Below, in pieces: positions 13,533 through 30,283 of a stretch of 64,000 nucleotides of DNA. Both the position numbers and the translations under genes were made by a program. This DNA comes from an uncultured Chloroflexia bacterium (GTDB lineage: Bacteria > Chloroflexota > Limnocylindria > Limnocylindrales > CSP1-4): NCBI GenBank assembly GCA_963703575.1, contig CAVPEU010000008.1:193880-257879 (forward strand). The letters are read 5' to 3'. Below the pieces are notes generated by a model. It was given only the letters and a program-made list of their open reading frames with translations, did not search any database and was not told where the DNA came from. Position 1 is the stretch's first letter; every line of letters starts with the position of its first letter.

Positions 13533-14222
13533 TCAGTCGCGGGGGCGCTCCTGGGTCGCGAAGCCCTGGCGGACGGCATAGGCGGCGGCCTGCACCCGGT
13601 TCGTCAGGTGCAGCTTCTCGAGGGCGTTGTGGACGTGGTTCTTGACGGTGCCCTCGGTGATGGTGAGCTGGTTCGCGATCTCCTTGTTGGACATGCCGTC
13701 GGCGACGAGCTGGAGGATCTCCGACTCGCGCCTCGTGAGCACGCTGTCCTGCGCCGGCGCCGGGTGACCGTGCGTCGGGATGCCGCCGGTCCGGAGCGCG
13801 TCGAGCAGCTTGCTGGCGACGGCCGGGGCGATCGGCGCCTCCCCGCGCATCACGCCACGAAGGTCGTCGAACAGCTGCTCGGGCCGGACGTTCTTGAGCA
13901 GGTAGCCGTTTGCGCCGGCCTTGATCGACTCGAACAGGTCGTCATCGTCCTCGGACACCGTGAGCATGACGATCGGCGTCGTGATCCCGGCCTGCCGGAT
14001 CGCGTTGACACCGTCCACGCCCGAGGAGCCGGGCATGTTCACGTCCATCACGACGATGTCGGGGCGCAGGATCCGTACCTTGTCCAGCGCGTCCCGCCCG
14101 TTCTCGCCCTCGCCGATGACCGTCATGTCGAACTGCGCGCTGATCAGGGTCGCGAGGGCCCGCCTGAACAGCGGCTGGTCATCGACCAGCAGAACCCTCA
14201 GCCTGGGTGGAACGTGTGCCAC
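13533..14222 (-). CDS. NarL/FixJ-family response regulator (receiver + LuxR-type HTH)
   Basis: Receiver domain (RVLLVDDQPLFRRAL...DIVVMDVNMPG) and C-terminal LuxR HTH (LTRRESEILQLVADGMSNKEIANQLTITEGTVKNHV). Start approximate (GTG near 14222), overlapping the kinase gene end. Confidence 0.8.
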   Translation of the reverse strand: MAHVPPRLRVLLVDDQPLFRRALATLISAQFDMTVIGEGENGRDALDKVRILRPDIVVMDVNMPGSSGVDGVNAIRQAGITTPIVMLTVSEDDDDLFESIKAGANGYLLKNVRPEQLFDDLRGVMRGEAPIAPAVASKLLDALRTGGIPTHGHPAPAQDSVLTRRESEILQLVADGMSNKEIANQLTITEGTVKNHVHNALEKLHLTNRVQAAAYAVRQGFATQERPRD

Positions 14223-15999
14223 GCGTGTCCTCTGCCTGGAGGTGGACGACGACACGTGTCCCCTCGTTCGGGGCAGTATGCACGTCGAGCGTTCCACCGA
14301 TCTGTTCGACCCGTTCTCGCATGGAGGCGAGGCCGAAGCCGCCCTCCATCGAGCTCGCGACGGTCGCAGGGTCGAAGCCCACGCCATCGTCCTCGATCGT
14401 CAGCGTCGTCACCGGCCCGCCGCACTCGATCCGGACCGCGACCCGCTGCGCGCCGGAATGCTTGCGCGTGTTCGTCAGGGCCTCCTGCACGACGCGGAGC
14501 AGCTGGACCTCGCTCCGTGGCGTGAGGGATTGCCGGGTGTCGCCGTCGCACGCGAAGCTGGCCGCGATTCCCGTCTGGCGGCTGTACTTGCGCAGGTAGT
14601 CGCGCAGCGACCCCTCCAGGCCGGCGTCCTCGCGAACCGTCTCGCGGAGGCCGAGGATGGCCTCGCGAACGTCCCCGTACGCCTCGTCGGCGATCCCGGC
14701 GATGTCCGAGAGCTCTTCGGCCATCAGGTGGCTGGCCTCGTCCTTGGCGCGTCCCTCGAGGGCCCGGAGACGGAGGTGGATGACCCCCAGGACCTGGGCC
14801 AGGCTGTCGTGCAGCTCCCGGGCGATCCGGTCCCGCTCCGCGTGGATCGTCCACTGCTCCTCGGCCTCGTGGAGCCTGGCGGTCCGGACGGCGATGGTGG
14901 CCATGTCCGCGAGGGCCCCGAGCAGGGAGCGCTCCGTCTCGCTGAACGGGCGCCCGGTGCGCACGACGCACAGCTCGCCGAGGGTTCCGTCCGGGCCCCG
15001 GAGGGGGCGGGCGGCCCACGCGCGCTCGTGCTCGCGCTCGGCGATGAGCAGCGGGCAGAGCGGGTTGCGCGGGTGCTGGGCGCGGTCGGACTGGTGGGCC
15101 ACGAGACACACGCTGCCGTCGTCGGCCACCGCGAGCCGGTCGCGAATCCCTGCGCTGGCGGCCTCCGCCGCGTCCGACAGGCAGACCACGGCCCGCTCCG
15201 CCCCGAGCAGCTCCCGGGCGTGGCGGGTGATCGTGTCGAGCACGTCCCCCAGGTCGGTGCGGCTGGTCAGCTGGAGCGCGACCTCGTACAGGGCCGCGTT
15301 CTCCCGCTCACGCCGGTGGAGGTCCGTGAGGGTGAGGCCCAGCTGGGCGGCCCCCGCGATCTCGCCGGAGATATCGGTGAGGGCGGCCACGGAGATGTCC
15401 GGCTCGACGGGCGGGTAGAAGGCCACGCGCAGGTGCCCGATCCGGCCGCCACCGCGGATCAACGGGAGGTCCAGGATGCCGGTGTCCACGGCGGGCCGGG
15501 TCGTGTATCGCGGGACGTCGAGGCCGGGGTCGGCCGGCTCGTCCAGGATCGCGGCGAGCCAGGCGAGGCCCGGAGCGAGCGGTGCAGGCCGTCGGACCGT
15601 CAGGGGCTCGCCGCCGGTGGTCCGGATGGTGACGATGCCGGCCAGGGCGCCCGTCTGGGTCACGACGCGGTCCAGCGCCTGTTCCAGGAGGTCCGGCAGC
15701 ACGTGAGTGCCCCGGACGGCGGAGCTCACCTCGTGGGTGACGGTGAGATCCCTGTTCTGGGCAACGAGCTGCTTCTCGCTCCGGTCGAGGTAAACCGAGA
15801 CGATCGTCGCGAACACCACGATGGCGCCGCCCATGATCATGGCCGACAGGAGGTGCGCGGCGTCGCCGGTGACCTGGGGATCGAGGAACAGGAACCGGAC
15901 AAGCTCGAACACCCAGACGAAGACGACGGGCAGGATCATCGTCGCCCACTTCAGGCGATTCAGGTCGCGCGCACCCCTGGGCTCAGACATCCTCCGCAC
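14179..15999 (-). CDS. Sensor histidine kinase with TM helices, GAF domain, HisKA_3 and HATPase_c domains
   Basis: Two N-terminal TM helices and a GAF-like central region. H-box ERDRIARELHDSLAQ is typical of NarL-partner kinases; C-terminal ATPase motifs (DDGVGFD, GGFGLASMRER). Confidence 0.8.
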   Translation of the reverse strand: MRRMSEPRGARDLNRLKWATMILPVVFVWVFELVRFLFLDPQVTGDAAHLLSAMIMGGAIVVFATIVSVYLDRSEKQLVAQNRDLTVTHEVSSAVRGTHVLPDLLEQALDRVVTQTGALAGIVTIRTTGGEPLTVRRPAPLAPGLAWLAAILDEPADPGLDVPRYTTRPAVDTGILDLPLIRGGGRIGHLRVAFYPPVEPDISVAALTDISGEIAGAAQLGLTLTDLHRRERENAALYEVALQLTSRTDLGDVLDTITRHARELLGAERAVVCLSDAAEAASAGIRDRLAVADDGSVCLVAHQSDRAQHPRNPLCPLLIAEREHERAWAARPLRGPDGTLGELCVVRTGRPFSETERSLLGALADMATIAVRTARLHEAEEQWTIHAERDRIARELHDSLAQVLGVIHLRLRALEGRAKDEASHLMAEELSDIAGIADEAYGDVREAILGLRETVREDAGLEGSLRDYLRKYSRQTGIAASFACDGDTRQSLTPRSEVQLLRVVQEALTNTRKHSGAQRVAVRIECGGPVTTLTIEDDGVGFDPATVASSMEGGFGLASMRERVEQIGGTLDVHTAPNEGTRVVVHLQAEDTRGTRSTQAEGSAGR

Positions 16000-16153
16000 T
16001 GTGCCGTTCGATACATGCCCGGGCTAAGAGCCGTCCGGCCCGTGGGTGTTGGGGCCGTCCGGCCCGGAGCCGCGTGACAGGTCACGGGTGGGTGCACCGT
16101 CAGATCCGGTCCCGCACCACGTGCCGGCTATCCGCCCCGGCTTCGGCGCCTCG

Positions 16154-17197
16154 TCAGGGGCGCGGCCAGCCCTCGGCGTCGCCCTTCGGGCGCAGCTGCA
16201 CGAACTCGAACCCGAAGCGGCCCTTCACGCACAGGTGGCCGCCGCCAGCCGACGAATCGAGTGGCGAGGTCACCTTGACGATCGAGTTGTCCTGGACGTG
16301 GAGGGAGAGCGTGCAGCCCACGCCGCAGTACGGGCAGATCGTGTCCGTCGTCGTCTGGGCGGCTGGATCCCAGGTGCCGGCGACGCGCATCTCGTGCTCG
16401 GAGCGGAACATCAGTGCGCCGGTCGGGCAGACGCCGATGCAGTTGCCGCAGTAGACGCACGCCGACTCCGGGAGCGGGACGTCGAACTCGCTCGAGATCC
16501 GGGCGTCGAAGCCACGCCCGGCGACCGAGATCGCGAACGTGTTCTGGGCGTCCTCGCCGCATGCCTCGACGCACTTGTAGCAGAGGATGCAGCGCGAGTA
16601 GTCGCGGACGTACAGGTCGTTGTCCACCTTGACCGGCTGGGACACGGTCCGGGCCTCGGCCATCGCGCCCGTGGGCGCATGGTGGTGCCCGGGCTCGCGC
16701 GCGTCGCGCTCGCCCGCCGCCGCAGGTGCCGTCGCGGGACCGAACCGCGAGGCATCCGCCCCGTATCGGGCGGCGTACCGCGCCAGGTCTCCGTCCGGTT
16801 GGGTGGGCCCCGCCAGCGACAGGTCCACGGACGAGCCCAGCAGCTCGAGGACCATCCGGCGCGAATGGCGCACGCGCTCGCTGTCGGTCTGGATCTCCAT
16901 CCCGGGCTCCACGCGCCGCGAGCAGGCGGGGACCAGCACCCGTGACCCGGTGACCTCGACGACGCACACGCGGCACACGTTGACCGGGGTGAGGTTCTCG
17001 AGGTAGCACAGCGTGGGGGTGTCGATGCCGACGGACCGCGCGGCCTCGAGGATCGTGGAGCCGGCCGGGACGGTGACGGCCGCACCGTCGATGGTCAGCT
17101 CCACGTCCGGGACCTCGGGGGCGGGCGGCGGCTCGGGCACGCGTGTGGAGCGGGCCGGGGGCTGGACGAAGATGCGGCCGATGTCGAGCTCGGTCAT
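16154..17197 (-). CDS. Formate dehydrogenase alpha, N-terminal iron-sulfur module only (NuoG-like 2Fe-2S and two 4Fe-4S sites, plus the Mo-domain 4Fe-4S motif), ending prematurely
   Basis: 2Fe-2S motif CYLENLTPVNVCRVCVVEV...C; ferredoxin-type motifs CILCYKCVEAC and CVYCGNCIGVCP; then ICPYCGVGC...CVKGRFGFEFV, the FeS-0 motif of molybdopterin oxidoreductases. The ORF stops about 15 residues later. Start ATG overlaps the fdhB stop (ATGA). Confidence 0.75.
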   Translation of the reverse strand: MTELDIGRIFVQPPARSTRVPEPPPAPEVPDVELTIDGAAVTVPAGSTILEAARSVGIDTPTLCYLENLTPVNVCRVCVVEVTGSRVLVPACSRRVEPGMEIQTDSERVRHSRRMVLELLGSSVDLSLAGPTQPDGDLARYAARYGADASRFGPATAPAAAGERDAREPGHHHAPTGAMAEARTVSQPVKVDNDLYVRDYSRCILCYKCVEACGEDAQNTFAISVAGRGFDARISSEFDVPLPESACVYCGNCIGVCPTGALMFRSEHEMRVAGTWDPAAQTTTDTICPYCGVGCTLSLHVQDNSIVKVTSPLDSSAGGGHLCVKGRFGFEFVQLRPKGDAEGWPRP

Positions 17198-19227
17198 GCG
17201 CTCGATCCCGCGCCGCCCGCCGACGCCGTGCCGCCCGCCGACGGCGTGCCGCCCGCCGACGGCGTGCCGCCCGCGGAACCCGCGCCACCCTCGGACGCCG
17301 TGCCGTCGAAGTGGACGAGGCCCGTGCGGATCGCGCTCTCGATCGCCGACGACGCGGTCTGGCCGAGGCCGCAGATCGATGCGTCGCGCATCGCACGCGA
17401 GAGGTCGGCGAACCGGGTCATCTCCGCCGACAGGGAGCCCAGCGGCCGCCCGGCGACCAGCCGGGCAAGCAGTTCCTCCTGGCGGACGGTTCCCACCCGG
17501 CAGGGCACGCACTGGCCGCACGACTCGTCGCGGAAGAAGGCGGCGATCCGGCGGAGCACACCCGGCAGATCCGCCGTCTGGTCGAACACCAGCACCACTC
17601 CCGAGCCGAGCGTGGCGCCGGCGGCCCTCGTTCCCTCGAACGTGAGCGGCGTGTCCAGCCGGTCCGGGCCCACGAACGCTCCGGCGGCGCCGCCGAGCAG
17701 CACGGCCTGGATCGCCCGGCCGCCCGGGACGCCCCCGGCCAGTTCGATGACCTCGCCCAGCGTTGCCCCGAACGGCAGCTCGTACACACCGGGCCGGGTC
17801 ACGTCACCCGAGACGCAGAACAGCTTGGGCCCGGTGGAGCCCTCGGTGCCGATCCGCGCATACGCTTCGCCGCCCAGCCGCAGGATGAGCGGCACGTTAA
17901 CCAGGGTCTCCACGTTGTTGATCGCCGTGGGCTGGCCGAACAGGCCGAACTCCACCGGGAACGGCGGCTTGTTGCGCGGCTCCGGGCGACCGCCTTCGAT
18001 GGATTCGAACAGGGCGGTCTCCTCGCCGGCGATGTAGGCGCCGGCCCCGATGCGGAGCTCGATGTCGAACGACCAGCCGCTGCCGGCGACGTCGTCTCCC
18101 AGCAGGCCGGCCGCCCGCGCCTGGGCCAGCGCGCTCGCGAGGCGCTCCCGCGCCAGCGGGTACTCGCCGCGCAGGTACAGGTACCCGCGCGAGGCGCCGA
18201 CGGCGAACCCCTCGATCGTCATCGCCTCGAGGAGCGCGAACGGGTCCTCCTCCAGGATCGCGCGGTCCTTGAACGTGCCCGGCTCGGACTCGTCCGCGTT
18301 GCACACGACGTAGCGGGGCGTCGCCGGCTGAGCGGCCACCGCGGCCCACTTGCGGCCGGTGGGGAAGGCGGCGCCACCCCGGCCGACCAGCCGCGAGGCC
18401 GTGACCTCGGCGATGACGGCATCCGCGCCGATCGCGATGGCGCGCGCGAGGGCCTGGTAGCCGCCGGCGGCGCGGTAGGCGGCCAGGGAGGTCGGGTCCA
18501 CCCGGCCGACCCGGGCGAGGAGCCGCAGGTCCCCGGCACCGGCCTGGGGGGCGAGGCCCCGCACCCACTCGAGGGGCGCGGCGGCCGCGTCGCGCAGCTC
18601 GGCGCGGACCCGCTCCGGCCCGCCGTGCGCCACCTCCACGCACCAGCCGAGGGTGTCGGTCACGGCGTCCGCGCCGTCCAGCTCGCCGGCGACGAGAGCG
18701 CCCGCCTCCGGCCCGGCCACCGTCACCAGCATCGCGGGCGCACGCTCGCACTGGCCCAGGCACGGGCTCCGCTGCCACGTCCCGTCGCCGTCGTGGAGCG
18801 GCGTGCCGGGCGTCCCGACCGTCCGCTCCAGGTCCTCGCAGATCCGCTCCCCGCCGGCCAGCCGGCAGGCGATGTCGTCGCACACGTGGGCGACGACAGG
18901 CGGTCGCGGCGTCGTCGGCAGCAGCGTGTAGAAGGAGGCGACGCCATAGGCATCCGCGGGCGGCACCGACAGTCGGCGGGAGACGTGGTTGAGCGCCCCG
19001 CGACTCACCCAGCCGACCCGCGCGGCCGCCGCCTCCAGGGCCGGCAGCAGCAGGGTGCGTTGCGCCCGCGCCCCGTGTCCGCCCCGCGCGGCGCGCCCGT
19101 CCAGGGCGATGGCCCGGTCGCCGCCGTCCCAGCCGCCGCGCGCGGGCCCGATCTCCGGGTCGAGGACGGCGTCGATCGCCGCCCGCTCCTCGGGTGTCGC
19201 CGCGGGACCGACGACGTGGAGATCCAT
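17194..19227 (-). CDS. Formate dehydrogenase beta subunit, fused NuoE-like (2Fe-2S) and NuoF-like (FMN/NAD/4Fe-4S) domains
   Basis: NuoE-like thioredoxin-fold Cys motifs (CDDIAC...CLGQC). NuoF motifs (GRGGAAFPTG, CNADESEPGTFKDR, ESCGQCVPCR). C-terminal Gly/Ser/Ala-rich tail is encoded by a 21 bp x 3 tandem repeat. Confidence 0.8.
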   Translation of the reverse strand: MDLHVVGPAATPEERAAIDAVLDPEIGPARGGWDGGDRAIALDGRAARGGHGARAQRTLLLPALEAAAARVGWVSRGALNHVSRRLSVPPADAYGVASFYTLLPTTPRPPVVAHVCDDIACRLAGGERICEDLERTVGTPGTPLHDGDGTWQRSPCLGQCERAPAMLVTVAGPEAGALVAGELDGADAVTDTLGWCVEVAHGGPERVRAELRDAAAAPLEWVRGLAPQAGAGDLRLLARVGRVDPTSLAAYRAAGGYQALARAIAIGADAVIAEVTASRLVGRGGAAFPTGRKWAAVAAQPATPRYVVCNADESEPGTFKDRAILEEDPFALLEAMTIEGFAVGASRGYLYLRGEYPLARERLASALAQARAAGLLGDDVAGSGWSFDIELRIGAGAYIAGEETALFESIEGGRPEPRNKPPFPVEFGLFGQPTAINNVETLVNVPLILRLGGEAYARIGTEGSTGPKLFCVSGDVTRPGVYELPFGATLGEVIELAGGVPGGRAIQAVLLGGAAGAFVGPDRLDTPLTFEGTRAAGATLGSGVVLVFDQTADLPGVLRRIAAFFRDESCGQCVPCRVGTVRQEELLARLVAGRPLGSLSAEMTRFADLSRAMRDASICGLGQTASSAIESAIRTGLVHFDGTASEGGAGSAGGTPSAGGTPSAGGTASAGGAGSSA

Positions 19228-19337
19228 GGCTGCCGAGTGTAGACCGGCCGCGCGTCGCTCGTCCGGCGGCCCAACGGCACGCGGCCGGTGGTCCCGCGGC
19301 GCCGGCCCGCGCGGCGCGCCGGCCCGCGCGGGCGGGC

Positions 19338-20441
19338 TCAGAGCCTGATCGGCGGCCCGTACCAGACAGACGCGGCCAGGATCGCGTACAGCCCGAGCAG
19401 CATCAGGCCCTCGAGCCAGGTGGACTCGCCGTCGAACACGACGAGCGCACCCAGGATGGCGGCCAGGGCGAGGCCCACCAGGAGCGTCGGGGCCAGCACG
19501 AGCGTCATCGGCACGGGCGAGATGAGCAGGCTGGCCAGCATCAGCACCGGCGTCAGCGCGATCGCGACCTGGAGGCTCGAGTTCTGGATCAGGCTGATCG
19601 CGAGGTCGGTCCGGTTCCGGAGCGCCGCCTGGATGCCGACCACGTTCTCCACGGCGTTGCCGGCGATCGCGACGATCACGAGGCCGACGAACGCCTCCGA
19701 CAGTCCGAGTGTCGCCATCGCCGGCCGCAGCGCCTCCACGAACCAGTCAGAGACCAGCGCCGCCCCGATGCCGGCGCCCGCCAGCAGGCCCAGGGCAAGC
19801 CCCATCGGCCACTGGTGCTCGGGGACCAGCTCCAGGCTCGAGGCGCCCTTGCCGCCGCCCAGCGAGAAGGGGATCGAGGCGGCGAACACGACCAGCAGGA
19901 CGATGGAGACGAACACGGAGATCTCGACGGCGTGACCCTGGTCGGGGCCGCCCGGCGATGTGGAGATCGTCGGGATCGCGATCGAGGCAACCGCCAGCAC
20001 CAGCACGATCGCGATGTTGCGCACCGGCGCGGCCTGGAACGTCTGGGCGCCGTGCCGGAGACCGCCGGCCACGAACGCGAGCCCCAGCACCAGCAGGCTG
20101 TTGCCGAGGATCGAGCCGATGAGCGCGGTCTGGACGAGGACCACGAGGCCCTCGCGCAGCGCGAACAGCGAGATGAACAGCTCCGGGAGGTTGCCCAGCG
20201 CGGACTGGAGGACGCCCGTGGTCCCGGGCCCGAACCGGCTGCCGAGCTGGTCCGTCCCCTCGCCGACGAGCGCCGCCAGGCCGGCCAGCGTGACCGCCGC
20301 GACCAGGAACACCGCGACCTCGGACGCGCCTGCGAGCCGGAGGACGAACGTGAGCCCGACACCGGCCACGGCGACCGCCAGCAGGACGAGCACCTTGCGG
20401 CCGAGGAGGGTGGCGAGCGGCGGCGCCGCGGTGGATGTCAT
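19338..20441 (-). CDS. Ca2+/H+ antiporter (CaCA/ChaA family)
   Basis: About 11 TM helices with two alpha-repeat signatures (GNLPELF and GNAVENVVG). Confidence 0.8.
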   Translation of the reverse strand: MTSTAAPPLATLLGRKVLVLLAVAVAGVGLTFVLRLAGASEVAVFLVAAVTLAGLAALVGEGTDQLGSRFGPGTTGVLQSALGNLPELFISLFALREGLVVLVQTALIGSILGNSLLVLGLAFVAGGLRHGAQTFQAAPVRNIAIVLVLAVASIAIPTISTSPGGPDQGHAVEISVFVSIVLLVVFAASIPFSLGGGKGASSLELVPEHQWPMGLALGLLAGAGIGAALVSDWFVEALRPAMATLGLSEAFVGLVIVAIAGNAVENVVGIQAALRNRTDLAISLIQNSSLQVAIALTPVLMLASLLISPVPMTLVLAPTLLVGLALAAILGALVVFDGESTWLEGLMLLGLYAILAASVWYGPPIRL

Positions 20442-20565
20442 GCCTGCGACTCTCCGGGCTGTCCGTCCCCCGCGTCAACTCCATCCGTGCGCCCGCCCGG
20501 CGAGCAGGCGGGTGGCGGACCGATGGTGCCCCGGTGGCGGGGCGGCTTGTGCTACCATGTGCTAC

Positions 20566-20865
20566 ATGAGCGAGACCGGCGATCGTCCCTCACGCGTGGG
20601 CGTGCGCGAGCTCCGCCAGAACCTGTCCGTCTACCTGGACCGGGTGAAGGCCGGCGAGACGCTGGAGGTGACGGAGCACGGGCAGCCCGTCGCGCGCCTC
20701 ACGCCGAACCCGCCGCAGCGGCTGTCGCTCGTGGACCGGCTGATCGCGGAGGGGCGGATAACGCCGGCGAAGGGCGATCACCGGACGTTGCCGATGCCGC
20801 CGAAGATCCCAGGCCGTCCACTGAGTGAGATCCTGCGGGAGATGCGGGACGAGGAAGACCGGTGA
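20566..20865 (+). CDS. Type II antitoxin (Phd/YefM-like, VapB partner)
   Basis: 99-aa product (MSETGDRPSRVGVRELRQNLSVYLDRVKAGETLEVTEHGQPVARL...). Stop overlaps the start of the downstream PIN-domain gene. Confidence 0.6.
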   Translation: MSETGDRPSRVGVRELRQNLSVYLDRVKAGETLEVTEHGQPVARLTPNPPQRLSLVDRLIAEGRITPAKGDHRTLPMPPKIPGRPLSEILREMRDEEDR

Positions 20866-21254
20866 GCGAGCTCACCTACGCCGACGCATCCGCGCTCGTC
20901 AAGCTCGTCGTCGAGGAGCCGGAATCCCGGGCGATGCACCGATGGTTCGTTGAGGCCGGGCGGATCACGACGAGCCGGATCGGCATCATCGAGACCGTGC
21001 GCGCATCGTCGCGGCGCGATCACGACCCGGACCACCGGGACCGCGTCCTCAACGACGTCGAGGTGTTCGAGCTCGACGCCGCGATCGCCGGCGTCGCCGC
21101 ATCGCTGGAACCGTTCCTGCTCCGGACGCTGGACGCCATCCACCTGGCGACGGCGCTGGCGCTCGTGCCGGACCTCGATGCCTTCGTGACCTATGACGAT
21201 CGCCTCGCGGAGGCGGCGCGCGCGATCGGGCTTCCGGTGGTCCGACCGGCCTGA
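20862..21254 (+). CDS. vapC: PIN-domain ribonuclease toxin VapC
   Basis: 130 aa; PIN acidic residues in canonical spacing (DASALVKL...EVFELD...DAIHLATA...). Confidence 0.75.
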   Translation: MSELTYADASALVKLVVEEPESRAMHRWFVEAGRITTSRIGIIETVRASSRRDHDPDHRDRVLNDVEVFELDAAIAGVAASLEPFLLRTLDAIHLATALALVPDLDAFVTYDDRLAEAARAIGLPVVRPA

Positions 21255-21271
21255 CACAGGGCCCCGCCGGA

Positions 21272-21496
21272 TCAGTCCGGCGGCAGGTCCAGCCACCTCT
21301 CCCGGAGTTCCCCCGTCGCCAGCTCCGTCCGCGACGCGATCCCGAACCGCTCGAAAAGGCGAGCGAGATGCGTCTCCACGGTCCTGGCGCCGATCCCCAG
21401 CGCCGCGCCGATCTCGTCATTGCTGCGCCCCTCGGTCACGAGGCCGACCACCTCGAGCTCGCCGGGTTGGCGATCCGGCGCCGGCGCCCCGGCTGA
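21272..21496 (-). pseudogene. Start-less 3' remnant of a LuxR-family regulator gene (HTH domain only)
   Basis: Seventy-four sense codons plus stop, beginning immediately after the fdhA-C TGA stop and in its frame: SAGAPAPDRQPGELEVVGLVTEGRSNDEIGAALGIGARTVETHLARLFERFGIASRTELATGELRERWLDLPPD. Classic LuxR HTH, no ATG, no receiver domain. Confidence 0.4.
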
Positions 21497-23419
21497 TCAG
21501 CCGGTCGCGGCCGGGGCGCCGAGCTTCTCGACCCGGATCGCCGTCGCCTTGAACTCGGCCGTGCCGGACTTCGGGTCCGCCGCGTCGATCGTGAGGTTGT
21601 TGACCGCGACGTCGTCCTGGAAGTGGAGCGTCATGAACGCGAGGCCGGGCCGGAGCCCCTCGTCCACCCGGACCGGCGCCTCCACCTCGCCCCGGCGCGA
21701 GACCACGCGCACGCGCTCGCCCTCGGCCAGGCCCAGGCGCGCCACGTCCTCCGGTGACAGATCCAGCGTCTCGCCGCGGCGCCGCGGATAGCGGTAGCCG
21801 CCGGACTGGACGCCCGTGTTGTAGGAGTCCAGGTGCCGGCCGGTGGTCAGGCGGATCGGGAAGTCCGCGTCCAGCCGGTCCACCGGCGGGTCGTGCTCCA
21901 CCGGCACGAACGGCGCACGGTCGCCCGGGACCGGGTCCTCCCACAATCGGGAGTGGAGGAACAGCTCGCCCGGGTGCGTCTCGTCGTAGCACGGCCACTG
22001 GAGGCCGCCCTCCGCCTCCAGCCGCGCGTAGCTCATGCCCCGATGCACCGGGGAGAGGCTGCGGAGCTCGTTCCACACCGCCTCCGCGGACGGCTCACCC
22101 CAATCGTGGCCGAGGCCGCGCGCGATGTCGAAGATGATCGCCAGGTCGTCGCGTGCCTCGCCCGGCGGTGCCAGGGCGCGCCGCACCCGCTGGACGCGCC
22201 GCTCGGAGTTCGTGACCGTGCCCTCGCTCTCGGCCCACGCGGCGGCCGCCGGCAGTACGACGTCCGCCACCTCGGCAGTCGCGGTGAGGAAGATGTCCTG
22301 GACGACGAGGAAGTCGAGCCCGCGCAGCAGCAGCTCGGTCCGGTGGCGGTCCGCCTCGGACTGCATCGGGTTCTCGCCGATGACGTACAGGGCGGTCAGC
22401 TCGCCGCGCTCCATCGCGTCGAACATGCCGGTCAGGTGCCAGCCCTTCTTCGGCGGGACCTTGACCCCCCAGGCCGCGTCGAAGGGGGCCCGGAGCTCGT
22501 CCTGCTCCACGTGCTGGAAGCCCGGCAGCCGGTCCGGCAGGGCTCCCATGTCGCCGCCGCCCTGGACGTTGTTCTGGCCCCGCAGCGGGTTGATGCCGCT
22601 GCCGTACTTCCCGACGTGGCCGGTGAGCAGGGCGAGCGAGATCAGGGCGAGCACGTTGTCCACCGCGTTGTGGTGCTCGGTGATGCCCAGGGTCCAGCAG
22701 ATCATCGCGCGGTCCGCCGTCGCGTAGGCGTGGGCGGCCTCGCGGATGGCCTCCGCGGGGACACCGGTCTCCCGCTCCGCGTATTCGAGGGTGTATGGCT
22801 CGACGCCCGCTCGATACGCGTCGAAGCCGGACGTGGCGCGGGCGATGAACTCCTCATTCGCGAGACCGGCCGCGATGATCTCGCGGCCCATCGCGTTGGC
22901 GAGCGCGATGTCGGAGCCCACGTCGAGGCCCAGCCACAGGTCGGCCCACTGGGCGCTCGACGTCCGCCGCGGGTCCACCGCGATCAGCCGGGCGCCACGG
23001 TGCACCCCCCGGAGGAGGTGGTGGAAGAAGATCGGGTGCGTCTCCCGGGCGTTGCTGCCCCACAGGAGGACGAGATCCGTCTCCTCAGCCTCTCGATATG
23101 AGCTGGTACCGCCGCCAGCGCCGAACACGGTCGCCAGACCGGCGACAGAGGGGGCGTGTCAGGTGCGGTTGCAGCTGTCGATGTTGTTGCTGCCCAGGAC
23201 GACACGGGAGAGCTTCTGGGCCGCGAAGTTGACCTCGTTGGTCGACTTGCTGCAGCTGAAGATCCCGTACGTCCGGGAGCCGTGCGCCTCGCCAGCGGCC
23301 CGGAGCCCCGCGACCGTCCTCGCCAGCGCCTCGTCCCAGGTCGCGGGACGCAGGACGCCGGTGCTTCGGTCGCCGTCGCGGACGAGCGGCGTGGTCAGGC
23401 GGACATACTCCTTCGGCAC
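21497..23419 (-). CDS. fdhA: Formate dehydrogenase alpha, catalytic molybdopterin module; selenoprotein with in-frame UGA (Sec) at 23159..23161
   Basis: GTG start with AAGAGG Shine-Dalgarno and an in-frame stop two codons upstream. The two ORFs 23159..23419 and 21497..23128 are contiguous in one frame across a TGA: ...NIDSCNRT-TGA-HAPSVAGLATVFGAGGGTSS..., matching the fdhF ...CARV-U-HGPSVAGL Sec motif. The remainder is molybdopterin oxidoreductase plus C-terminal molybdopterin-binding domain. Confidence 0.85.
23105..23158 (-). promoter_or_regulatory. Bacterial SECIS element immediately 3' of the Sec-UGA of fdhA
   Basis: mRNA after UGA: CACG CCCCUCU GUCGCC GGUCU GGCGAC CGUG UUCGG. This gives a 4-bp lower stem, a 6-bp upper stem and a GGUCU apical loop, near-identical in architecture to the E. 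coli fdhF SECIS (loop GGUCU). Confidence 0.6.
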
Positions 23420-23763
23420 TGGTCACCTCTTGGTGGAGGGTCCGACTTGGGGAGTGTACTGCGCCGGAAATGTGCGCCACGTTCGGCGCAACGGATGCGG
23501 TCCCGTCCGTTGTTCGGTCGCGCGCTGCCGTGTCTGCAGGACCCGCCATCCGGCTCCAGGCTCCCATCGGAGCTGCCCGGCGGGCGGTTCCGGGTCCGTG
23601 AGTCACGAGATCGCGCCGACCGCGGTCAGCTCGGCTGCCTCGCCCCGATTCGCGGGTCTCCCAGGCACGCGCCGGCCACCTGCCGGCACGCGCCGCCCGC
23701 CTGCCGGAGCGCGACCGCGCACGCCCTGCACACGCCGCCCGCCTACCGGAGCGCGCCGCCCGC

Positions 23764-24819
23764 CTACCGGAGCGCGACGGCCGCCTCGCCCGCCTCCACG
23801 TTGCCGACCCGCCACGCCGCGACGCCCGCCGCCGCCAGGTCCGCCTCCACCTCCGCGAGCCGGTCCGCCGTCACGGCGGCGAGGAGCCCCCCGGATGTCT
23901 GCGGATCGTGGGCGAGCGCCACGAGCTCGGGCGGGACCCCGATCGCGACGTCCAGTGCGGGTGCCGTGAACCGCCGGTTGTGCCCCGCGCCCCCGGTCTC
24001 CACGCCGGCCCGCGCGAGATCGAGCGCGCCGTCGAGGGCGGGCAACGCGCCGGCCTCGAACACCAGCCGGACCCCCGACGCGCGGGCCATCTCGAGCCCG
24101 TGACCCAGGAGCCCGAACCCGGTCACGTCAGTCGCGCCGCGGATGCCGTGACGCACGAGGACCTCGGAAGCGGCGCGGTTGAGCGCCCTCATCTGGTTCA
24201 CGGCCGCGGCCAGGTCCGCGTCGCTCGTCCGGCCCTGCCGCCGTCCGCTGACCAGCAGACCCGTTCCCAGGGGCTTGGTGAGCAGGAGCGCGTCCCCGGG
24301 CCGCGCGCCGCCCTTGCGCAGCAGCCGGTCCGGGTGCGCCGCGCCGATCACGGCCAGCCCGTACTTCGGCTCAGGGTCCCGGATCGTGTGACCACCGGCC
24401 AGGATGCCGCCAGCCTCGCGCACCTTCGCCGCCGCCGCCTCGAGCACCGCGGTCAGCGCGTCGTTCGGGAAGTCCTCTGGGAACGCCGCGATCGAGAGCG
24501 CGAACAGCACCCGCCCGCCCATCGCGAACACGTCCGACAGCGCGTTCGCCGCAGCGATCTCCCCGTAGGCCGCCGGGTCGTCCACGAGCGGCGGGAAGAA
24601 GTCGAGCGTGCCGAGGATCGCGAGGTCGTCCGAGATGCGGTACGCGGCGGCGTCGTCGGGCGGATCGAGGCCGGCCAGGAGCGCGGGATCCGGGGCCGAA
24701 CCCGCGCCCAGCCCGGCCAGCGCCTCGGCCAGCAGGTCCGCGCCCAGCTTCGCCGCGCAGCCGCCGCAGTCGGTGAGGTCGGTCAGGCGGATCGGGGCGA
24801 GGTCGGGACGCGCCGTCAT
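23764..24819 (-). CDS. selD: Selenophosphate synthetase (selenide, water dikinase) SelD, Cys form
   Basis: N-terminal LTDLTDCGGCAAKLG motif; AIR-synthase-like fold motifs (GGHT, DVTGFGLLGH). Directly upstream of the fdhA selenoprotein gene on the same strand. Confidence 0.85.
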   Translation of the reverse strand: MTARPDLAPIRLTDLTDCGGCAAKLGADLLAEALAGLGAGSAPDPALLAGLDPPDDAAAYRISDDLAILGTLDFFPPLVDDPAAYGEIAAANALSDVFAMGGRVLFALSIAAFPEDFPNDALTAVLEAAAAKVREAGGILAGGHTIRDPEPKYGLAVIGAAHPDRLLRKGGARPGDALLLTKPLGTGLLVSGRRQGRTSDADLAAAVNQMRALNRAASEVLVRHGIRGATDVTGFGLLGHGLEMARASGVRLVFEAGALPALDGALDLARAGVETGGAGHNRRFTAPALDVAIGVPPELVALAHDPQTSGGLLAAVTADRLAEVEADLAAAGVAAWRVGNVEAGEAAVALR

Positions 24820-24887
24820 GCGCGGATCATAGGCGGGTCGGCCCGGGCGATCATCGGCGGGTCGGCCCGGGCGCTACCATCGCGGGC

Positions 24888-24984
24888 GGGAGCGGAGGGG
24901 TCCCGGTGGGCTCCCCGGTCTTCAAAACCGGTGGCGCGGCGCCCGGCGTCGCGCGGTGGGTTCGACTCCCATGCGCTCCCGCCA
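24888..24984 (+). tRNA. selC: tRNA-Sec (selC), anticodon UCA at 24922..24924
   Basis: 97 nt. Acceptor GGGAGCG pairs with CGCUCCC, then discriminator G and encoded CCA. Anticodon arm CCGGU-CUUCAAA-ACCGG (loop identical to E. coli tRNA-Sec), a long GC-rich variable arm, and T arm GGUUCGACUCC. Located between selD and selA. Confidence 0.75.
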
Positions 24985-24997
24985 TCCTCTTGAGGCG

Positions 24998-26158
24998 TCA
25001 GGCGGACGGCGTTCCGAAGCGGCCGGGATCGAGCTCGGCCGCGATCTCCGGTCCACGTCCCAGCACCAGGTCCGCGATCAGCCGCGCCGACGCCGGGCCG
25101 GTGGAGATGCCCCACGGCCCGTGCCCCGCGCACACGAACAGGTTGCGCCGGCCGGGGACGGCCCCGATCAACGGCCGCCCGTCCGCGCTCTGGGGCCGGG
25201 CGCAGGCGCGGACCCCGCGGATCGGCGCCTCGGCGATACCCGGCACGAAGCGGCTCGCGCGCACCAGGATCCGTTCCATCCAGGCCGCCGGGTCCGGCTC
25301 ACGCGGCAGGAACGTGGACCCGACGGCCGCCGCGCCCGGCAGGGGAACGAGGCTGGACTCGACCTCGTCGGGCTCGCCGGCATCGGTGTCGCCGCCCGGC
25401 GTGGGCTCGCCGCCGGCGTCGAGCACGGCCTCGATCCCTGCCTCCTCCAGGGCGTGGCGCGGTGGCGCCGCCAGCTCGGCCTCCACCACGACCCCCCAGC
25501 GCGGGGCGATCGGCGCCCACAGCCCCGAGGGATCGAGCAGCGCCGGGGTCCAGGGGCCGGCGGCAACCACGACGGCGCCGGCCGGGATCACCTGGCCGTT
25601 CACGCGCACGCCGACCACCGCGTCGCCCTCGACCTCGAGCGTCGCCCCATGCCCCAGGCGGATCACCGCGCCCCGCGACTCGGCCAGCGTGGCGTACGCG
25701 TAGGTGGAGGCGCCGGGCATCACCGGATAGCCGATGTCGACGCGGCAGGCCCACAGGTCCTCGCCGACCGCCGGTTCCAGCCGCCGCAGCGCCTCGCCAC
25801 CGACCACGTCGAGTGCCAGCTCCGGGAAGGGACCCTCGATCAGCGTCCTCTGGCGTCGCGCCGCCGCCTCCGAGGTCGAGATGTAGAGCATCCCGACCGG
25901 ATGCTCCGCGAACGGGAAGGCGTTCGAGATCGTCGCCAGCTCGCGGTACAGGCCGACGGTCTCGCGATAGAGGGCGGCCAGCACGGGGTCGAACGGATGC
26001 TGCACGACGCCCGAGTTGGCGCCCGACGCCCCCGACGCCAGGCCCTCTCGCTCGACCAGCACGACACGCGCCCCCGCCGCGCCCAGGAAGGCGGCCGTCG
26101 CGGTGCCCACGATCCCGCCGCCGACCACCACCACGTCCGGTGCCGCGCCCGTCCGCAT
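24998..26158 (-). CDS. FAD-dependent oxidoreductase (DAO family; glycine/D-amino-acid oxidase-like)
   Basis: N-terminal Rossmann motif (DVVVVGGGIVGTATAAFLGAAGARVVLVERE) and C-terminal CAGHGPWGIS. Start taken at MRTGAAPD; divergent from selA. Confidence 0.65.
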   Translation of the reverse strand: MRTGAAPDVVVVGGGIVGTATAAFLGAAGARVVLVEREGLASGASGANSGVVQHPFDPVLAALYRETVGLYRELATISNAFPFAEHPVGMLYISTSEAAARRQRTLIEGPFPELALDVVGGEALRRLEPAVGEDLWACRVDIGYPVMPGASTYAYATLAESRGAVIRLGHGATLEVEGDAVVGVRVNGQVIPAGAVVVAAGPWTPALLDPSGLWAPIAPRWGVVVEAELAAPPRHALEEAGIEAVLDAGGEPTPGGDTDAGEPDEVESSLVPLPGAAAVGSTFLPREPDPAAWMERILVRASRFVPGIAEAPIRGVRACARPQSADGRPLIGAVPGRRNLFVCAGHGPWGISTGPASARLIADLVLGRGPEIAAELDPGRFGTPSA

Positions 26159-26220
26159 CGCGCCTCCTCCAACCAACGCCCGGGCCATCGTAGTCTCGCC
26201 GGGCCTGCGATGATCGCGCG

Positions 26221-29609: not shown

Positions 29610-30283
29610 ACCGCCCGCCCGACGTCACGGCAATCGTGCTGGCGGGTGGTGCCTCGTCCCGCTTCGGCGGCGACAAGCTGGCCATCGACCTCGGCGGCCG
29701 GCCGCTGCTGCACCACGCGCTCGAGGCCGTCGCCCTGGTCGCCGACCGCATCGTCGTCGTCATCGCTCCCGGGGCCCCCGAGCCGGCGGCTCCGCCATCG
29801 CTGGTATCGCGCATCGCGATCGCCCATGACGCGGCGGCCTACGGGGGCCCGCTCGCGGGCCTGGCCGCGGGCCTGGCAGCCGTGGGTCTGGCGGCCGTGG
29901 GCCCCGCCGTCCGCGATGACCATCCGCGCATCGTGCTCGTCGTCGGGGGCGACATGCCCGGTCTCGTGCCGGCGGTGCTCCGGCTCCTCCTTGACCGCCT
30001 GGGCGCGGAGGATGGGCTCGCCGCGATGACCCTCGACGCATCGCCGCCGTCGCCGCTGCCGCTGGCGATCCGGCCAGGTGCCGCGCGGGACGGGCTCGCG
30101 GCCTGCCTGGCGAGCGGCCGGCGCAGTCTCCGCTCGCTCCTCGAGGCCGTTCCCTCGGCGATGGTTCCCGCCGCCGACTGGCGGGCCATCGATCCCTCGG
30201 CCGCCACCCTGCGGGACATCGACACGCGGGGCGATCTCGATACCCGGGGCGATCTCGACACCGGCGATCTCGACCGTCGTTGA
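29606..30283 (+). CDS. mobA: Molybdenum cofactor guanylyltransferase MobA
   Basis: AIVLAGGASSRFGGDKL motif. GTG start overlaps the selB stop (GTGA). Bis-MGD cofactor is required by formate dehydrogenase. Confidence 0.75.
   Translation: MNRPPDVTAIVLAGGASSRFGGDKLAIDLGGRPLLHHALEAVALVADRIVVVIAPGAPEPAAPPSLVSRIAIAHDAAAYGGPLAGLAAGLAAVGLAAVGPAVRDDHPRIVLVVGGDMPGLVPAVLRLLLDRLGAEDGLAAMTLDASPPSPLPLAIRPGAARDGLAACLASGRRSLRSLLEAVPSAMVPAADWRAIDPSAATLRDIDTRGDLDTRGDLDTGDLDRR

What the first reader, a model, noticed from the sequence alone, without database searches (positions are those of the whole stretch)
16154..23419. Formate dehydrogenase alpha subunit is split into two genes in reversed, non-collinear order
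The N-terminal module (16154..17197) has the NuoG-like 2Fe-2S and two 4Fe-4S sites plus the CPYCGVGC...CVKGR FeS-0 motif of the Mo domain. It ends just after FEFV and is translationally coupled to fdhB. The rest of the Mo domain, from ...RLTTPLVR onward, is encoded 4.3 kb away at 21497..23419, with its own AAGAGG Shine-Dalgarno, a GTG start and an in-frame stop two codons upstream. On the minus strand, the catalytic piece lies upstream of the FeS piece. The two are separated by a Ca2+/H+ antiporter, a VapBC pair and fdhB. This cannot result from a simple insertion; it implies a rearrangement, or a two-polypeptide enzyme in which the FeS-0 cluster is supplied in trans.
Basis: partly seen in the sequence, partly recalled or inferred. 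Interest (0 to 1): 0.75.

Follow-up and report, generated by a model that had tools for sequence, protein, structure and literature searches.

The report
Naturally split, gene-order-permuted selenocysteine formate dehydrogenase
The large subunit of an NAD-type formate dehydrogenase really is encoded as two separate genes in swapped order. This is not an assembly error: the same layout, catalytic piece then flavoprotein then iron-sulfur piece, recurs in dozens of uncultured soil and freshwater bacteria from many phyla, apparently undescribed and mis-annotated.

Summary
The 347-aa protein at 16154..17197(-) carries a 2Fe-2S site, two 4Fe-4S sites and the FeS-0 domain, then stops. The 640-aa protein at 21497..23419(-) carries the rest of the Mo/W domain.

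On solved R. capsulatus FdsA the pieces cover residues 17-303 and 308-937, so nothing is lost or duplicated. It has an in-frame TGA at 23159..23161, a conserved SECIS hairpin, and selD, tRNA-Sec, selA, selB and mobA alongside.

Misassembly and gene decay are both excluded:
- Of 82 species-level genomes (GC 58-75%), 61 of the 65 informative loci show the order C-piece, NuoE/F-fusion FdhB, N-piece on one strand.
- 26 of these are tight three-gene operons, often with fdhD and mobA.
- All 16 cluster cysteines are invariant, Sec is present in 58 of 58, and dN/dS is 0.15-0.45.

The 4.3 kb separation in this window comes from secondary insertions (GerE fragment, VapBC, CaCA antiporter) into the C-B spacer of a Limnocylindria subclade.

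The predicted cofactor set equals that of M. extorquens FDH1, in three polypeptides with FeS-0 supplied in trans. I found no description in the literature searched. I rate it a new variant of a known kind, of moderate to high interest.

The parts
16154..17197 (-). fdhA-N: 347-aa iron-sulfur piece of the split alpha subunit. It has a 2Fe-2S site (C64, C75, C78, C92), two 4Fe-4S sites (C203/206/209/213 and C247/250/253/257) and FeS-0 (C288/291/295/323, followed by K325). It has no His(Cys)3 cluster.
   Evidence: Pfam. PDB alignment to FdsA 17-303. TIGR01591 profile positions 1-50. All 16 Cys are invariant in 82 loci. The ORF stops 0-43 aa after KGRFGFxFV in all relatives but one frameshifted assembly.
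17194..19227 (-). fdhB: 677-aa NuoE-NuoF fusion (2Fe-2S thioredoxin-like domain, FMN/NADH domain, SLBB, 4Fe-4S). It is translationally coupled to fdhA-N by an ATGA overlap.
   Evidence: Pfam. NCBIfam nuoF_fam and nuoE_fam. It lies directly upstream of the N-piece in all loci.
17208..17305 (.). An 18-nt tandem repeat of 5.4 copies in the 3' end of fdhB, encoding the AGGTPS-type low-complexity tail.
   Evidence: translation.
19338..20441 (-). CaCA-family (Na_Ca_ex) cation antiporter inserted between the C-piece and fdhB. It is shared with a subgroup of Limnocylindria relatives and is not part of the enzyme.
   Evidence: Pfam. It is present directly upstream of fdhB in L001, L004, L007 and L069 and absent from compact operons.
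20566..21254 (+). Type II toxin-antitoxin pair on the opposite strand, inserted in the C-B spacer: Phd/YefM antitoxin (20566..20865) and PIN toxin (20862..21254).
   Evidence: Pfam. Translation. PIN homologues occupy the same spacer in about 10 loci.
21272..21451 (-). 59-aa GerE/LuxR helix-turn-helix-only ORF just downstream of the C-piece. It is probably a fragment or a small regulator.
   Evidence: Pfam.
21497..23419 (-). fdhA-C: 640-aa catalytic Mo/W-bis-PGD piece (Molybdopterin plus Molydop_binding domains) without FeS-0. It has a GTG start and an AAGAGG Shine-Dalgarno sequence.
   Evidence: PDB alignment to FdsA 308-937 and to FdhF-type enzymes. TIGR01591 profile positions 53-672 at 631.9 bits.
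23159..23161 (-). In-frame TGA, selenocysteine codon 87 of fdhA-C (CNRT-U-HAPSV), at the canonical Mo/W ligand position.
   Evidence: A TGA sits at this position in 58 of 58 related loci.
23130..23146 (-). SECIS-like hairpin GUCGCC-GGUCU-GGCGAC, starting 12 nt after the UGA.
   Evidence: the GGUCU loop is conserved in 49 distinct sequences, with compensatory stem changes (GUGGUC/GGCCAC in L050, L076, L078).
23764..24819 (-). selD (selenophosphate synthetase), upstream of fdhA-C on the same strand.
   Evidence: Pfam AIRS and AIRS_C. It lies upstream of the C-piece in many relatives.
24886..24984 (+). tRNA-Sec (selC), anticodon TCA.
   Evidence: ARAGORN. Rfam RF01852 at 70.4 bits.
26221..27657 (+). 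selA (L-seryl-tRNA(Sec) selenium transferase).
   Evidence: Pfam SelA, E = 5.8e-111.
27654..29609 (+). selB (Sec-specific elongation factor).
   Evidence: Pfam GTP_EFTU, SelB-wing_3 and Beta-barrel_SelB.
29606..30283 (+). mobA-like molybdenum cofactor guanylyltransferase. The start is approximate and appears to overlap the selB stop.
   Evidence: Pfam NTP_transf_3. mobA follows the N-piece directly in Actinomycetota operons.

Best explanation
The window encodes a functional, selenocysteine-dependent, NAD(P)-linked Mo/W formate dehydrogenase of the M. extorquens FDH1 / FdsABG kind. Its alpha subunit is made as two polypeptides.

Roles of the three proteins:
- fdhA-C (640 aa) binds the bis-PGD cofactor and carries the Sec-His-Arg active site, but has no iron-sulfur cluster.
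- fdhB is a NuoE/NuoF fusion with FMN, a 4Fe-4S cluster and a 2Fe-2S cluster.

The FeS-0 domain of the N-piece docks non-covalently where it is covalently attached in ordinary enzymes. This rebuilds the chain Mo/W, FeS-0, 4Fe-4S, 4Fe-4S, 2Fe-2S, 4Fe-4S (FdhB), FMN, NAD(P)+.

The gene order C, B, N is the ancestral operon form of a distinct, widely distributed clade. In this genome's Limnocylindria subclade, unrelated genes were later inserted between C and B.

What is shown: the break point, the complementarity of the pieces, conservation of the order, invariant ligands, Sec/SECIS, purifying selection, and linkage to fdhD, mobA and sel genes. What is inferred: physical assembly, formate and NAD(P) specificity, and the origin of the order. 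The origin could be tandem duplication of an fdhA-fdhB unit with loss of the outer N and C parts, or fission followed by transposition.
For: - Complementary mapping with only a 4-residue gap on solved FdsA, and on TIGR01591 positions 1-50 and 53-672.
- 61 of 65 informative loci among 82 GTDB species genomes have C, B, N on one strand. 26 are compact with spacers of 200 nt or less. The loci span GC 58-75%, several assemblers, megabase contigs and one complete chromosome.
- Every N-piece stops right after FeS-0, and every C-piece starts 5-10 residues before RLTxPLVR with no FeS-0 upstream.
- Stand-alone N-pieces of about 340 aa fill the top 120 hits in two searches. All top 120 C-piece homologues lack PF04879.
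- All 16 Cys ligands are invariant in 82 loci.
- Sec TGA is present in 58 of 58 loci, and the SECIS shows compensatory changes.
- dN/dS is 0.15-0.45 for N, B and C.
- fdhD is adjacent in about 50 of 82 loci, and Actinomycetota have fdhD-C-B-N-mobA operons.
- The missing His(Cys)3 cluster is the off-pathway A4 cluster of RcFDH (PMC7171172).
- MeFDH1 has exactly the predicted cofactor set (PMC10869683).
- Read directly from the fdhB translation, not checked against homologues: the NuoF FMN/NADH motifs (GGAAFPTGRKW, GAGAYIAGEETAL) and the 4Fe-4S Cys motifs are present.
Against: - There is no biochemical, transcript or proteomic evidence for any member. All members seen are from MAGs or metagenomes.
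- I could not model the complex. AF2 on the N-piece alone gave pLDDT 56, and a fused alignment misaligned.
- This window has no fdhD. The C gene is separated from B-N by an opposite-strand toxin-antitoxin pair, so co-regulation here is not assured.
- Four Limnocylindria-type loci have no C-piece within at least 6 kb upstream.
- MAG taxonomic labels may include mis-binned contigs.
Confidence: 0.8

Rival explanations
1. Assembly artefact: a chimeric or mis-joined contig has cut a normal continuous fdhA and misplaced one half.
For: The window is a single high-GC sequence of unknown provenance, with repeats nearby. No reads are available.
Against: The same break point and order occur in 61 independent species-level assemblies from different projects and assemblers. 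These include long-read contigs over 1 Mb and the complete chromosome OZ244775.1. Both new termini have proper signals: a stop codon, and a Shine-Dalgarno sequence with a GTG start.
Confidence: 0.01
2. Decaying remnants: a rearrangement broke fdhA and the pieces are pseudogenes on their way out.
For: The C-piece contains an in-frame TGA. Mobile-type genes (VapBC) sit between the pieces. This window has no fdhD.
Against: The TGA is the canonical Sec codon with a conserved SECIS and a full sel gene set alongside. dN/dS is 0.15-0.45. All metal ligands are invariant across phyla. All three ORFs are intact.
Confidence: 0.03
3. Independent modules: FdhB plus the N-piece form a self-standing HoxFU-like diaphorase serving another partner, and the C-piece works alone or with another electron carrier. 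On this reading the two alpha pieces do not form one subunit.
For: In Limnocylindria the C gene is loosely linked to B-N, with inserts of 0.85-4.9 kb, and four loci have no C within 6 kb. In complex I the cluster equivalent to FeS-0 (N7) is remote from the electron-transfer chain (PMC7171172), so an FeS-0 domain can persist without a Mo partner.
Against: The C-piece has no cluster of its own to pass electrons on, and it begins exactly where the N-piece ends. The three genes are contiguous in 26 loci from many phyla. The FeS-0 Cys residues and the following Lys are invariant (alignment A1).
Confidence: 0.08
4. Covalent rejoining: the two alpha pieces are ligated after translation by a split intein or a similar mechanism, so the mature enzyme has a normal alpha chain.
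For: None beyond the exact complementarity of the pieces.
Against: The N-piece tail after FEFV is 0-43 residues, variable and unconserved. The C-piece has only 5-10 residues before the conserved RLTxPLVR. That leaves no room for intein halves, and Pfam finds no intein domain.
Confidence: 0.01

Closest known systems
Methylobacterium extorquens AM1 tungsten formate dehydrogenase FDH1 (Fdh1A/Fdh1B; PDB 7E5Z, 7VW6)
   Same: The predicted cofactor inventory is the same: bis-MGD, three 4Fe-4S and one 2Fe-2S on alpha, and FMN, 4Fe-4S and 2Fe-2S on a single beta that corresponds to FdsB plus FdsG (PMC10869683). Neither enzyme has a His(Cys)3 cluster. The N-piece and C-piece both hit 7vw6_A, at E = 1e-37 and 3.5e-125.
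   Different: In MeFDH1 alpha is one chain of about 990 aa with a Cys ligand (Cys436). Here alpha is two chains cut after FeS-0, the gene order is C, B, N, and the ligand is Sec. Metal identity is unknown here.
Rhodobacter capsulatus / Cupriavidus necator NAD+-dependent FdsABG(D) (PDB 6TG9, 6TGA)
   Same: It is the best sequence match for the N-piece (E = 4.7e-47). The two pieces tile FdsA 17-303 and 308-937. The on-pathway clusters A1, A2, A3 and A5 are all retained.
   Different: In FdsABG(D), FdsA is continuous, has the extra A4 cluster at a dimer interface, and uses Cys386. FdsG and FdsB are separate, and an FdsD subunit is present. I did not look for an FdsD homologue.
Formylmethanofuran dehydrogenase FwdB/FwdD (and FmdB/D)
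   Same: It is a precedent for a Mo/W-bis-PGD catalytic subunit made from two polypeptides that reassemble the canonical fold. The C-piece hits FwdB weakly. PMC7171172 notes that the C-terminus is a separate subunit in M. wolfeii.
   Different: There the cut removes the C-terminal cap domain (domain IV), and FeS-0 stays with the catalytic chain. Here the cut removes FeS-0, and the gene order is permuted.
FdhF-type catalytic subunits docked on separate iron-sulfur/flavin modules (HDCR FdhF, PDB 7QV7; F420-dependent FdhA; E. coli FdhH)
   Same: These are the highest-scoring solved relatives of the C-piece (E = 1e-142 to 1e-130). Among them, E. coli FdhH is a Sec enzyme. In these systems the electron-transfer module is a different polypeptide from the catalytic one.
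   Different: In all of them FeS-0 is the N-terminus of the catalytic chain: the alignments start at chain residues 60-65, after the cluster motif. Here that segment is the C-terminus of the partner subunit.
Gene-caller truncation of conventional Sec-FDH genes at the UGA
   Same: It also yields short fdhA fragments in databases. Examples are P0215, which ends at ...NNIDHCARL just before Sec, and the 86-aa and 543-aa calls for this C-piece.
   Different: That is an annotation artefact within one continuous gene. The N/C split here lies about 90 codons upstream of the Sec codon, ends in true stops, and is separated by another gene.

Membership tests
Mo/W-bis-PGD formate dehydrogenase alpha (TIGR01591 Fdh-alpha; FdhF/FdsA type) | N-terminal FeS-0 motif CxxCxxxC...C followed by a conserved Lys | tested here: met
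   CPYCGVGC...HLCVKG at N-piece residues 288-325. PF04879 E = 3e-17. Invariant in 82 loci. It sits on a different polypeptide from the Mo domain.
Mo/W-bis-PGD formate dehydrogenase alpha (TIGR01591 Fdh-alpha; FdhF/FdsA type) | Sec or Cys metal ligand followed by His, and the catalytic Arg in the ...PLRGQNNVQG motif | tested here: met
   CNRT-U(TGA)-HAPSV, and NPLRGQNNVQG aligned to the same motifs in 7qv7_S and 7bkb_D. These positions are highly conserved in relatives.
Mo/W-bis-PGD formate dehydrogenase alpha (TIGR01591 Fdh-alpha; FdhF/FdsA type) | Molybdopterin (PF00384) and Molydop_binding (PF01568) domains | tested here: met
   E = 1.3e-67 and 4.9e-28 on the C-piece.
Mo/W-bis-PGD formate dehydrogenase alpha (TIGR01591 Fdh-alpha; FdhF/FdsA type) | A single polypeptide that reaches the curated whole-protein score (666.25 bits) | tested here: not met
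   The C-piece scores 631.9 bits (profile positions 53-672) and the N-piece 51.9 bits (positions 1-50). Neither passes alone, and only their sum would. This explains the generic database names.
NAD+-linked FDH with complex-I-like diaphorase (FdsABG / MeFDH1) | NuoF-like subunit with an FMN/NADH site and a 4Fe-4S cluster, plus a NuoE-like 2Fe-2S module | tested here: met
   Complex1_51K, NADH_4Fe-4S and 2Fe-2S_thioredx on one 677-aa protein. nuoF_fam scores 433.7 bits. The motifs are visible in the translation.
NAD+-linked FDH with complex-I-like diaphorase (FdsABG / MeFDH1) | Alpha N-terminal module with a 2Fe-2S and two ferredoxin-type 4Fe-4S clusters (the on-pathway chain) | tested here: met
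   The on-pathway assignment comes from PMC7171172.
NAD+-linked FDH with complex-I-like diaphorase (FdsABG / MeFDH1) | His(Cys)3 4Fe-4S cluster (A4 of FdsA, N5 of NuoG) | tested here: not met
   The segment aligned to FdsA HPLDCLTCAANGDC has no Cys in any of the 82 loci. MeFDH1 also lacks this cluster, so the system fits the MeFDH1 subtype and not the FdsA subtype.
NAD+-linked FDH with complex-I-like diaphorase (FdsABG / MeFDH1) | Formate:NAD(P)+ oxidoreductase activity of the purified complex | not testable with these tools
   It needs expression or purification. No cultured carrier was found.
Bacterial selenoprotein (SelB-dependent UGA recoding) | In-frame UGA at a position that is Cys or Sec in homologues, a SECIS hairpin immediately downstream, and selA, selB, selC and selD in the genome | tested here: met
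   A TGA is present in 58 of 58 relatives.
Split-intein trans-spliced protein | N-intein and C-intein halves at the new termini | tested here: not met
   The termini are 0-43 aa and 5-10 aa, and unconserved. No intein domains were found.

The most novel reading that the evidence does not exclude
The split is an adaptation to selenocysteine decoding and metallocofactor assembly, not a neutral accident. In a fused Sec-type alpha, termination at the UGA would release an iron-sulfur fragment of about 380 aa that can bind FdhB and can never be completed. With the cut placed just before the Sec-bearing domain, failed decoding wastes only an 86-aa peptide. The FdhB and N-piece module stays competent to receive a catalytic piece matured separately by FdhD, MobA and SelB. 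On this view C, B, N is a modular, exchangeable-catalytic-subunit design selected across at least eight phyla. It would also offer a natural split site for re-wiring FDH catalytic domains to other electron modules.
Probability: 0.2. Interest if true: 0.75.

Novelty: new variant of a known kind. Interest (0 to 1): 0.6.

Why it matters
1. It shows that FeS-0, normally an integral part of domain I of every cluster-containing Mo/W-bis-PGD enzyme, can be supplied by another polypeptide. It also marks a natural, evolution-tested split site between the catalytic domain and the electron-transfer module. That is useful for engineering CO2-reducing formate dehydrogenases.

2. It is a clean example of operon-level permutation of a multidomain metalloenzyme, kept across many phyla and apparently spread by horizontal transfer.

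3. Annotation pipelines see three unrelated-looking fragments: a "2Fe-2S-binding protein", an 86-aa ORF and a 543-aa "YjgC-like" ORF. None passes the Fdh-alpha model. NAD-linked formate oxidation and selenium use are therefore probably under-counted in Limnocylindria, Acidobacteriota, Planctomycetota, Actinomycetota, Rokubacteria and other abundant uncultured soil and freshwater lineages.

Tried and rejected
- AlphaFold2 on the N-piece with a 40-sequence alignment gave mean pLDDT 56, with the ferredoxin and FeS-0 parts below 50. It was unusable, so I ran no fold search.
- A fused N+C query aligned with N and C homologues misaligned in MAFFT: the N homologues were placed on the C region at 22-25% identity. 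I abandoned complex modelling.
- The 50%-identity representative library returned mostly fragments. Its short distant hits are not independent splits: P0215 is a conventional fused Sec-FDH cut by the gene caller at the UGA, P0249 continues past the split point into the Mo-domain (…RLTQPLIRRSD) and is therefore a truncated fused gene, and P0218 is a NuoG-like protein with a degenerate Mo domain.
- The promoter and terminator scan of 15900..24000 found nothing.
- Rfam found only tRNA-Sec and no Moco riboswitch.
- tblastn with FdhD found no copy in the window.
- Five literature searches and three paper look-ups found no description of an FDH alpha split after FeS-0 or of a C-B-N order. The library does not cover all journals.
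- A third homologue search, seeded with an Isosphaeraceae N-piece to find a cultured carrier, returned only MAG and metagenome proteins.
- I considered and rejected misassembly, pseudogenes, intein ligation and Sec-truncation artefact as explanations (see rivals).


Full report
**What is in the window**

On the minus strand between 24.8 and 16.1 kb the order is as follows:
- selD, 24819..23764.
- A 640-aa Mo/W-domain protein, 23419..21497.
- A 59-aa GerE helix-turn-helix ORF, 21451..21272.
- On the opposite strand, a Phd/YefM antitoxin (20566..20865) and a PIN toxin (20862..21254).
- A Na_Ca_ex antiporter, 20441..19338.
- A 677-aa NuoE-NuoF fusion, fdhB, 19227..17194.
- Overlapping its stop as ATGA, a 347-aa iron-sulfur protein, 17197..16154.

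The 347-aa protein (N-piece) has Fer2_4, two ferredoxin-type 4Fe-4S motifs and a C-terminal Molybdop_Fe4S4 domain. It stops 14 residues after FEFV. The 640-aa protein (C-piece) starts at a GTG behind AAGAGG, with a stop two codons upstream. It matches the whole Molybdopterin domain and the Molydop_binding domain, but has no cluster motif.

**The pieces are exactly complementary**

- Against solved structures, N residues 24-333 align to R. capsulatus FdsA 17-303, and C residues 7-636 align to FdsA 308-937.
- Against NCBIfam TIGR01591, the N-piece covers profile positions 1-50 (51.9 bits) and the C-piece covers 53-672 (631.9 bits).
- The curated cut-off of 666.25 bits is reached by neither piece alone and only by their sum.
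- So the alpha subunit is cut once, in the linker between the FeS-0 subdomain and the rest of the Mo domain, with no loss or duplication.

- The C-piece reads through an in-frame TGA at 23159..23161 (codon 87) in the motif CNRT-U-HAPSV. This is the canonical metal-ligand position.
- Twelve nucleotides downstream is the hairpin GUCGCC-GGUCU-GGCGAC, at 23130..23146. Its loop is conserved in 49 distinct homologous sequences, and its stem shows compensatory changes.
- tRNA-Sec lies at 24886..24984.
- selD, selA (26221..27657), selB (27654..29609) and a mobA-like gene (about 29606..30283) surround the C-piece.
- ORF finders and public gene calls therefore show the C-piece as 86 aa plus about 543 aa.

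**Not an artefact and not decay**

A search with the N-piece returned only stand-alone proteins of about 303-392 aa with the same domain string among the top 120 hits, at 77-98% identity. A scan of one genome per GTDB species gave 80 loci, and two more came from contig look-ups. I compared all 82 with tblastn and ORF extension.

| Arrangement | Loci |
|---|---|
| Compact C-B-N on one strand (spacers of 200 nt or less, many 0-12 nt) | 26 |
| C-[insert]-B-N on one strand (mostly 0.85-4.9 kb of variable genes between C and B) | 35 |
| No C-piece within at least 6 kb upstream | 4 |
| Flank too short to tell | 17 |

- Every N-piece ORF ends 0-43 residues after KGRFGFxFV, apart from one frameshifted long-read assembly.
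- Every C-piece begins 5-10 residues before RLTxPLVR, with no cluster motif upstream.
- The TGA is present in 58 of 58 loci.
- The loci come from different projects and assemblers. They include contigs over 1 Mb and a complete chromosome, and range from 58 to 75% GC.
- They are labelled Chloroflexota (mostly Limnocylindria), Actinomycetota, Acidobacteriota, Planctomycetota (Isosphaeraceae, Gemmata), Rokubacteria, Vulcanimicrobiota and others. Some labels may reflect mis-binning.
- All 16 cluster cysteines of the N-piece are invariant in 82 loci.
- Pairwise dN/dS is 0.15-0.45 for N, B and C.
- fdhD lies next to the genes in about 50 loci, and Actinomycetota have fdhD-C-B-N-mobA operons.
- The top 120 homologues of the C-piece are all post-Sec fragments without PF04879. 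None is a Cys variant.

**How the window's layout arose**

The compact C-B-N operon occurs in most phyla and in some Limnocylindrales (L041, L042). The inserted form is confined to Chloroflexota-type, high-GC loci. The 4.3 kb gap in the window is therefore best read as secondary insertion into the C-B spacer. The antiporter directly upstream of fdhB is shared with L001, L004, L007 and L069, and the PIN toxin with about ten loci.

Only the order C before B before N needs a rearrangement. A tandem duplication of an fdhA-fdhB (or fdhB-fdhA) unit, followed by loss of the first N (or B-N) and the last C (or C-B), gives exactly C-B-N. Fission followed by transposition is an alternative. I could not discriminate between them, and found no intermediates. 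One locus (L034) also carries a conventional fused paralogue at 34-49% identity.

**How it most likely works**

The predicted cofactor set is:
- Bis-PGD with Sec on the C-piece.
- FMN, one 4Fe-4S cluster and one 2Fe-2S cluster on FdhB.

This is the set seen in the cryo-EM structure of M. extorquens FDH1, whose beta subunit likewise corresponds to FdsB plus FdsG (PMC10869683).

The cluster that the N-piece lacks relative to FdsA and NuoG is the His(Cys)3 cluster. In R. capsulatus FDH this is the off-pathway A4 cluster at the dimer interface. The direct chain there is A1, A2, A3, A5 (2Fe-2S) and B6 (PMC7171172). All on-pathway centres are thus retained.

The electron exit from the pterin (FeS-0 and the Lys that follows its fourth Cys) sits on one polypeptide, and the Sec-His-Arg site sits on another. 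The active enzyme should therefore be an obligate C:N:B complex in which the FeS-0 subdomain packs into the Mo domain as it does in single-chain enzymes. Assembly, substrate and nucleotide specificity are inferred, not shown.

**Rivals**

- Misassembly is excluded by the comparative data.
- Pseudogenisation is excluded by selection and ligand conservation.
- Intein ligation is excluded because the new termini are too short and are unconserved.
- A looser alternative is that B-N is an independent diaphorase and C works elsewhere. It is disfavoured because C has no cluster of its own and starts exactly where N stops. It draws some support from the loose C linkage in Limnocylindria.

**Comparison with what is known, and novelty**

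- The system works like MeFDH1 and FdsABG.
- It fails the single-polypeptide definition of Fdh-alpha.
- It fails the FdsA-type A4 feature.
- It uses Sec where MeFDH1 (Cys436) and RcFdsA (Cys386) use Cys.
- FwdB/FwdD shows that bis-PGD subunits can be split, but at the other end.
- FdhF-type enzymes on separate electron modules keep FeS-0 on the catalytic chain.
- I found no paper describing a cut after FeS-0 or a C-B-N order. The literature coverage is incomplete.
- Database names for the pieces are generic: 2Fe-2S-binding protein, HndD, YjgC, NADH dehydrogenase.
- I rate it a new variant of a known kind.

**Limits**

- No reads, expression data or cultured carrier are available.
- Structure prediction was uninformative.
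- The breadth beyond the best 80 genome loci was not examined locus by locus.

Noticed in passing
window 16154..17197 (-), N-piece residues about 120-190, especially H171-H173: The segment that replaces the His(Cys)3 cluster is itself conserved: RYGAD..RFG and GERDAREPGHHH. The three histidines are present in 78, 80 and 64 of 82 loci. It could be a structural patch or a new metal or partner-binding site.
   Followed up: partly
window 23667..23786: A 21-nt tandem repeat (5.7 copies, consensus ACGCGCCGCCCGCCTGCCGGA) spans the 3' end of selD and the 345-nt spacer upstream of the C-piece. It may be a regulator-binding array. I did not check conservation in relatives.
   Followed up: no
window 17208..17305, 26238..26301 and 24825..24873: Short tandem repeats encode low-complexity tails in fdhB (AGGTPS-type) and at the 5' end of selA (GHPP-type). 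A 24-nt repeat of 2 copies lies between selD and tRNA-Sec.
   Followed up: no
window 19338..20441 (-); L001 6967..8079; L004, L007, L069: A CaCA-family cation antiporter sits directly upstream of fdhB (110 nt in the window) in a subgroup of Limnocylindria. It may be co-transcribed with fdhB and fdhA-N. No functional link is evident.
   Followed up: partly
window 13533..15999 (-): A GAF-HisKA_3 sensor kinase and a LuxR-type response regulator lie immediately downstream of the N-piece. Homologous kinases follow the N-piece in about 11 loci and regulators in about 10, for example L003 and L011. They are possible regulators of the operon.
   Followed up: partly
window 24998..26188 (-), within ORF 24998..26488: A DAO-family FAD-dependent oxidoreductase lies between tRNA-Sec and selA on the opposite strand.
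   Followed up: no
L034 9517..14492 (-): One Limnocylindrales genome carries, 1 kb from its split C-B-N genes, a conventional fused N-C fdhA followed by a NuoF-like gene, at 34-49% identity to the window proteins. It is a useful outgroup for dating the split.
   Followed up: no
L003-L082: N-pieces from different phyla are 67-86% identical to the window's. This is unusually high for cross-phylum orthologues and suggests horizontal spread of the whole operon. Some MAG labels (Saccharimonadales, Binatia, Verrucomicrobiia on short high-GC contigs) look like mis-binning.
   Followed up: no
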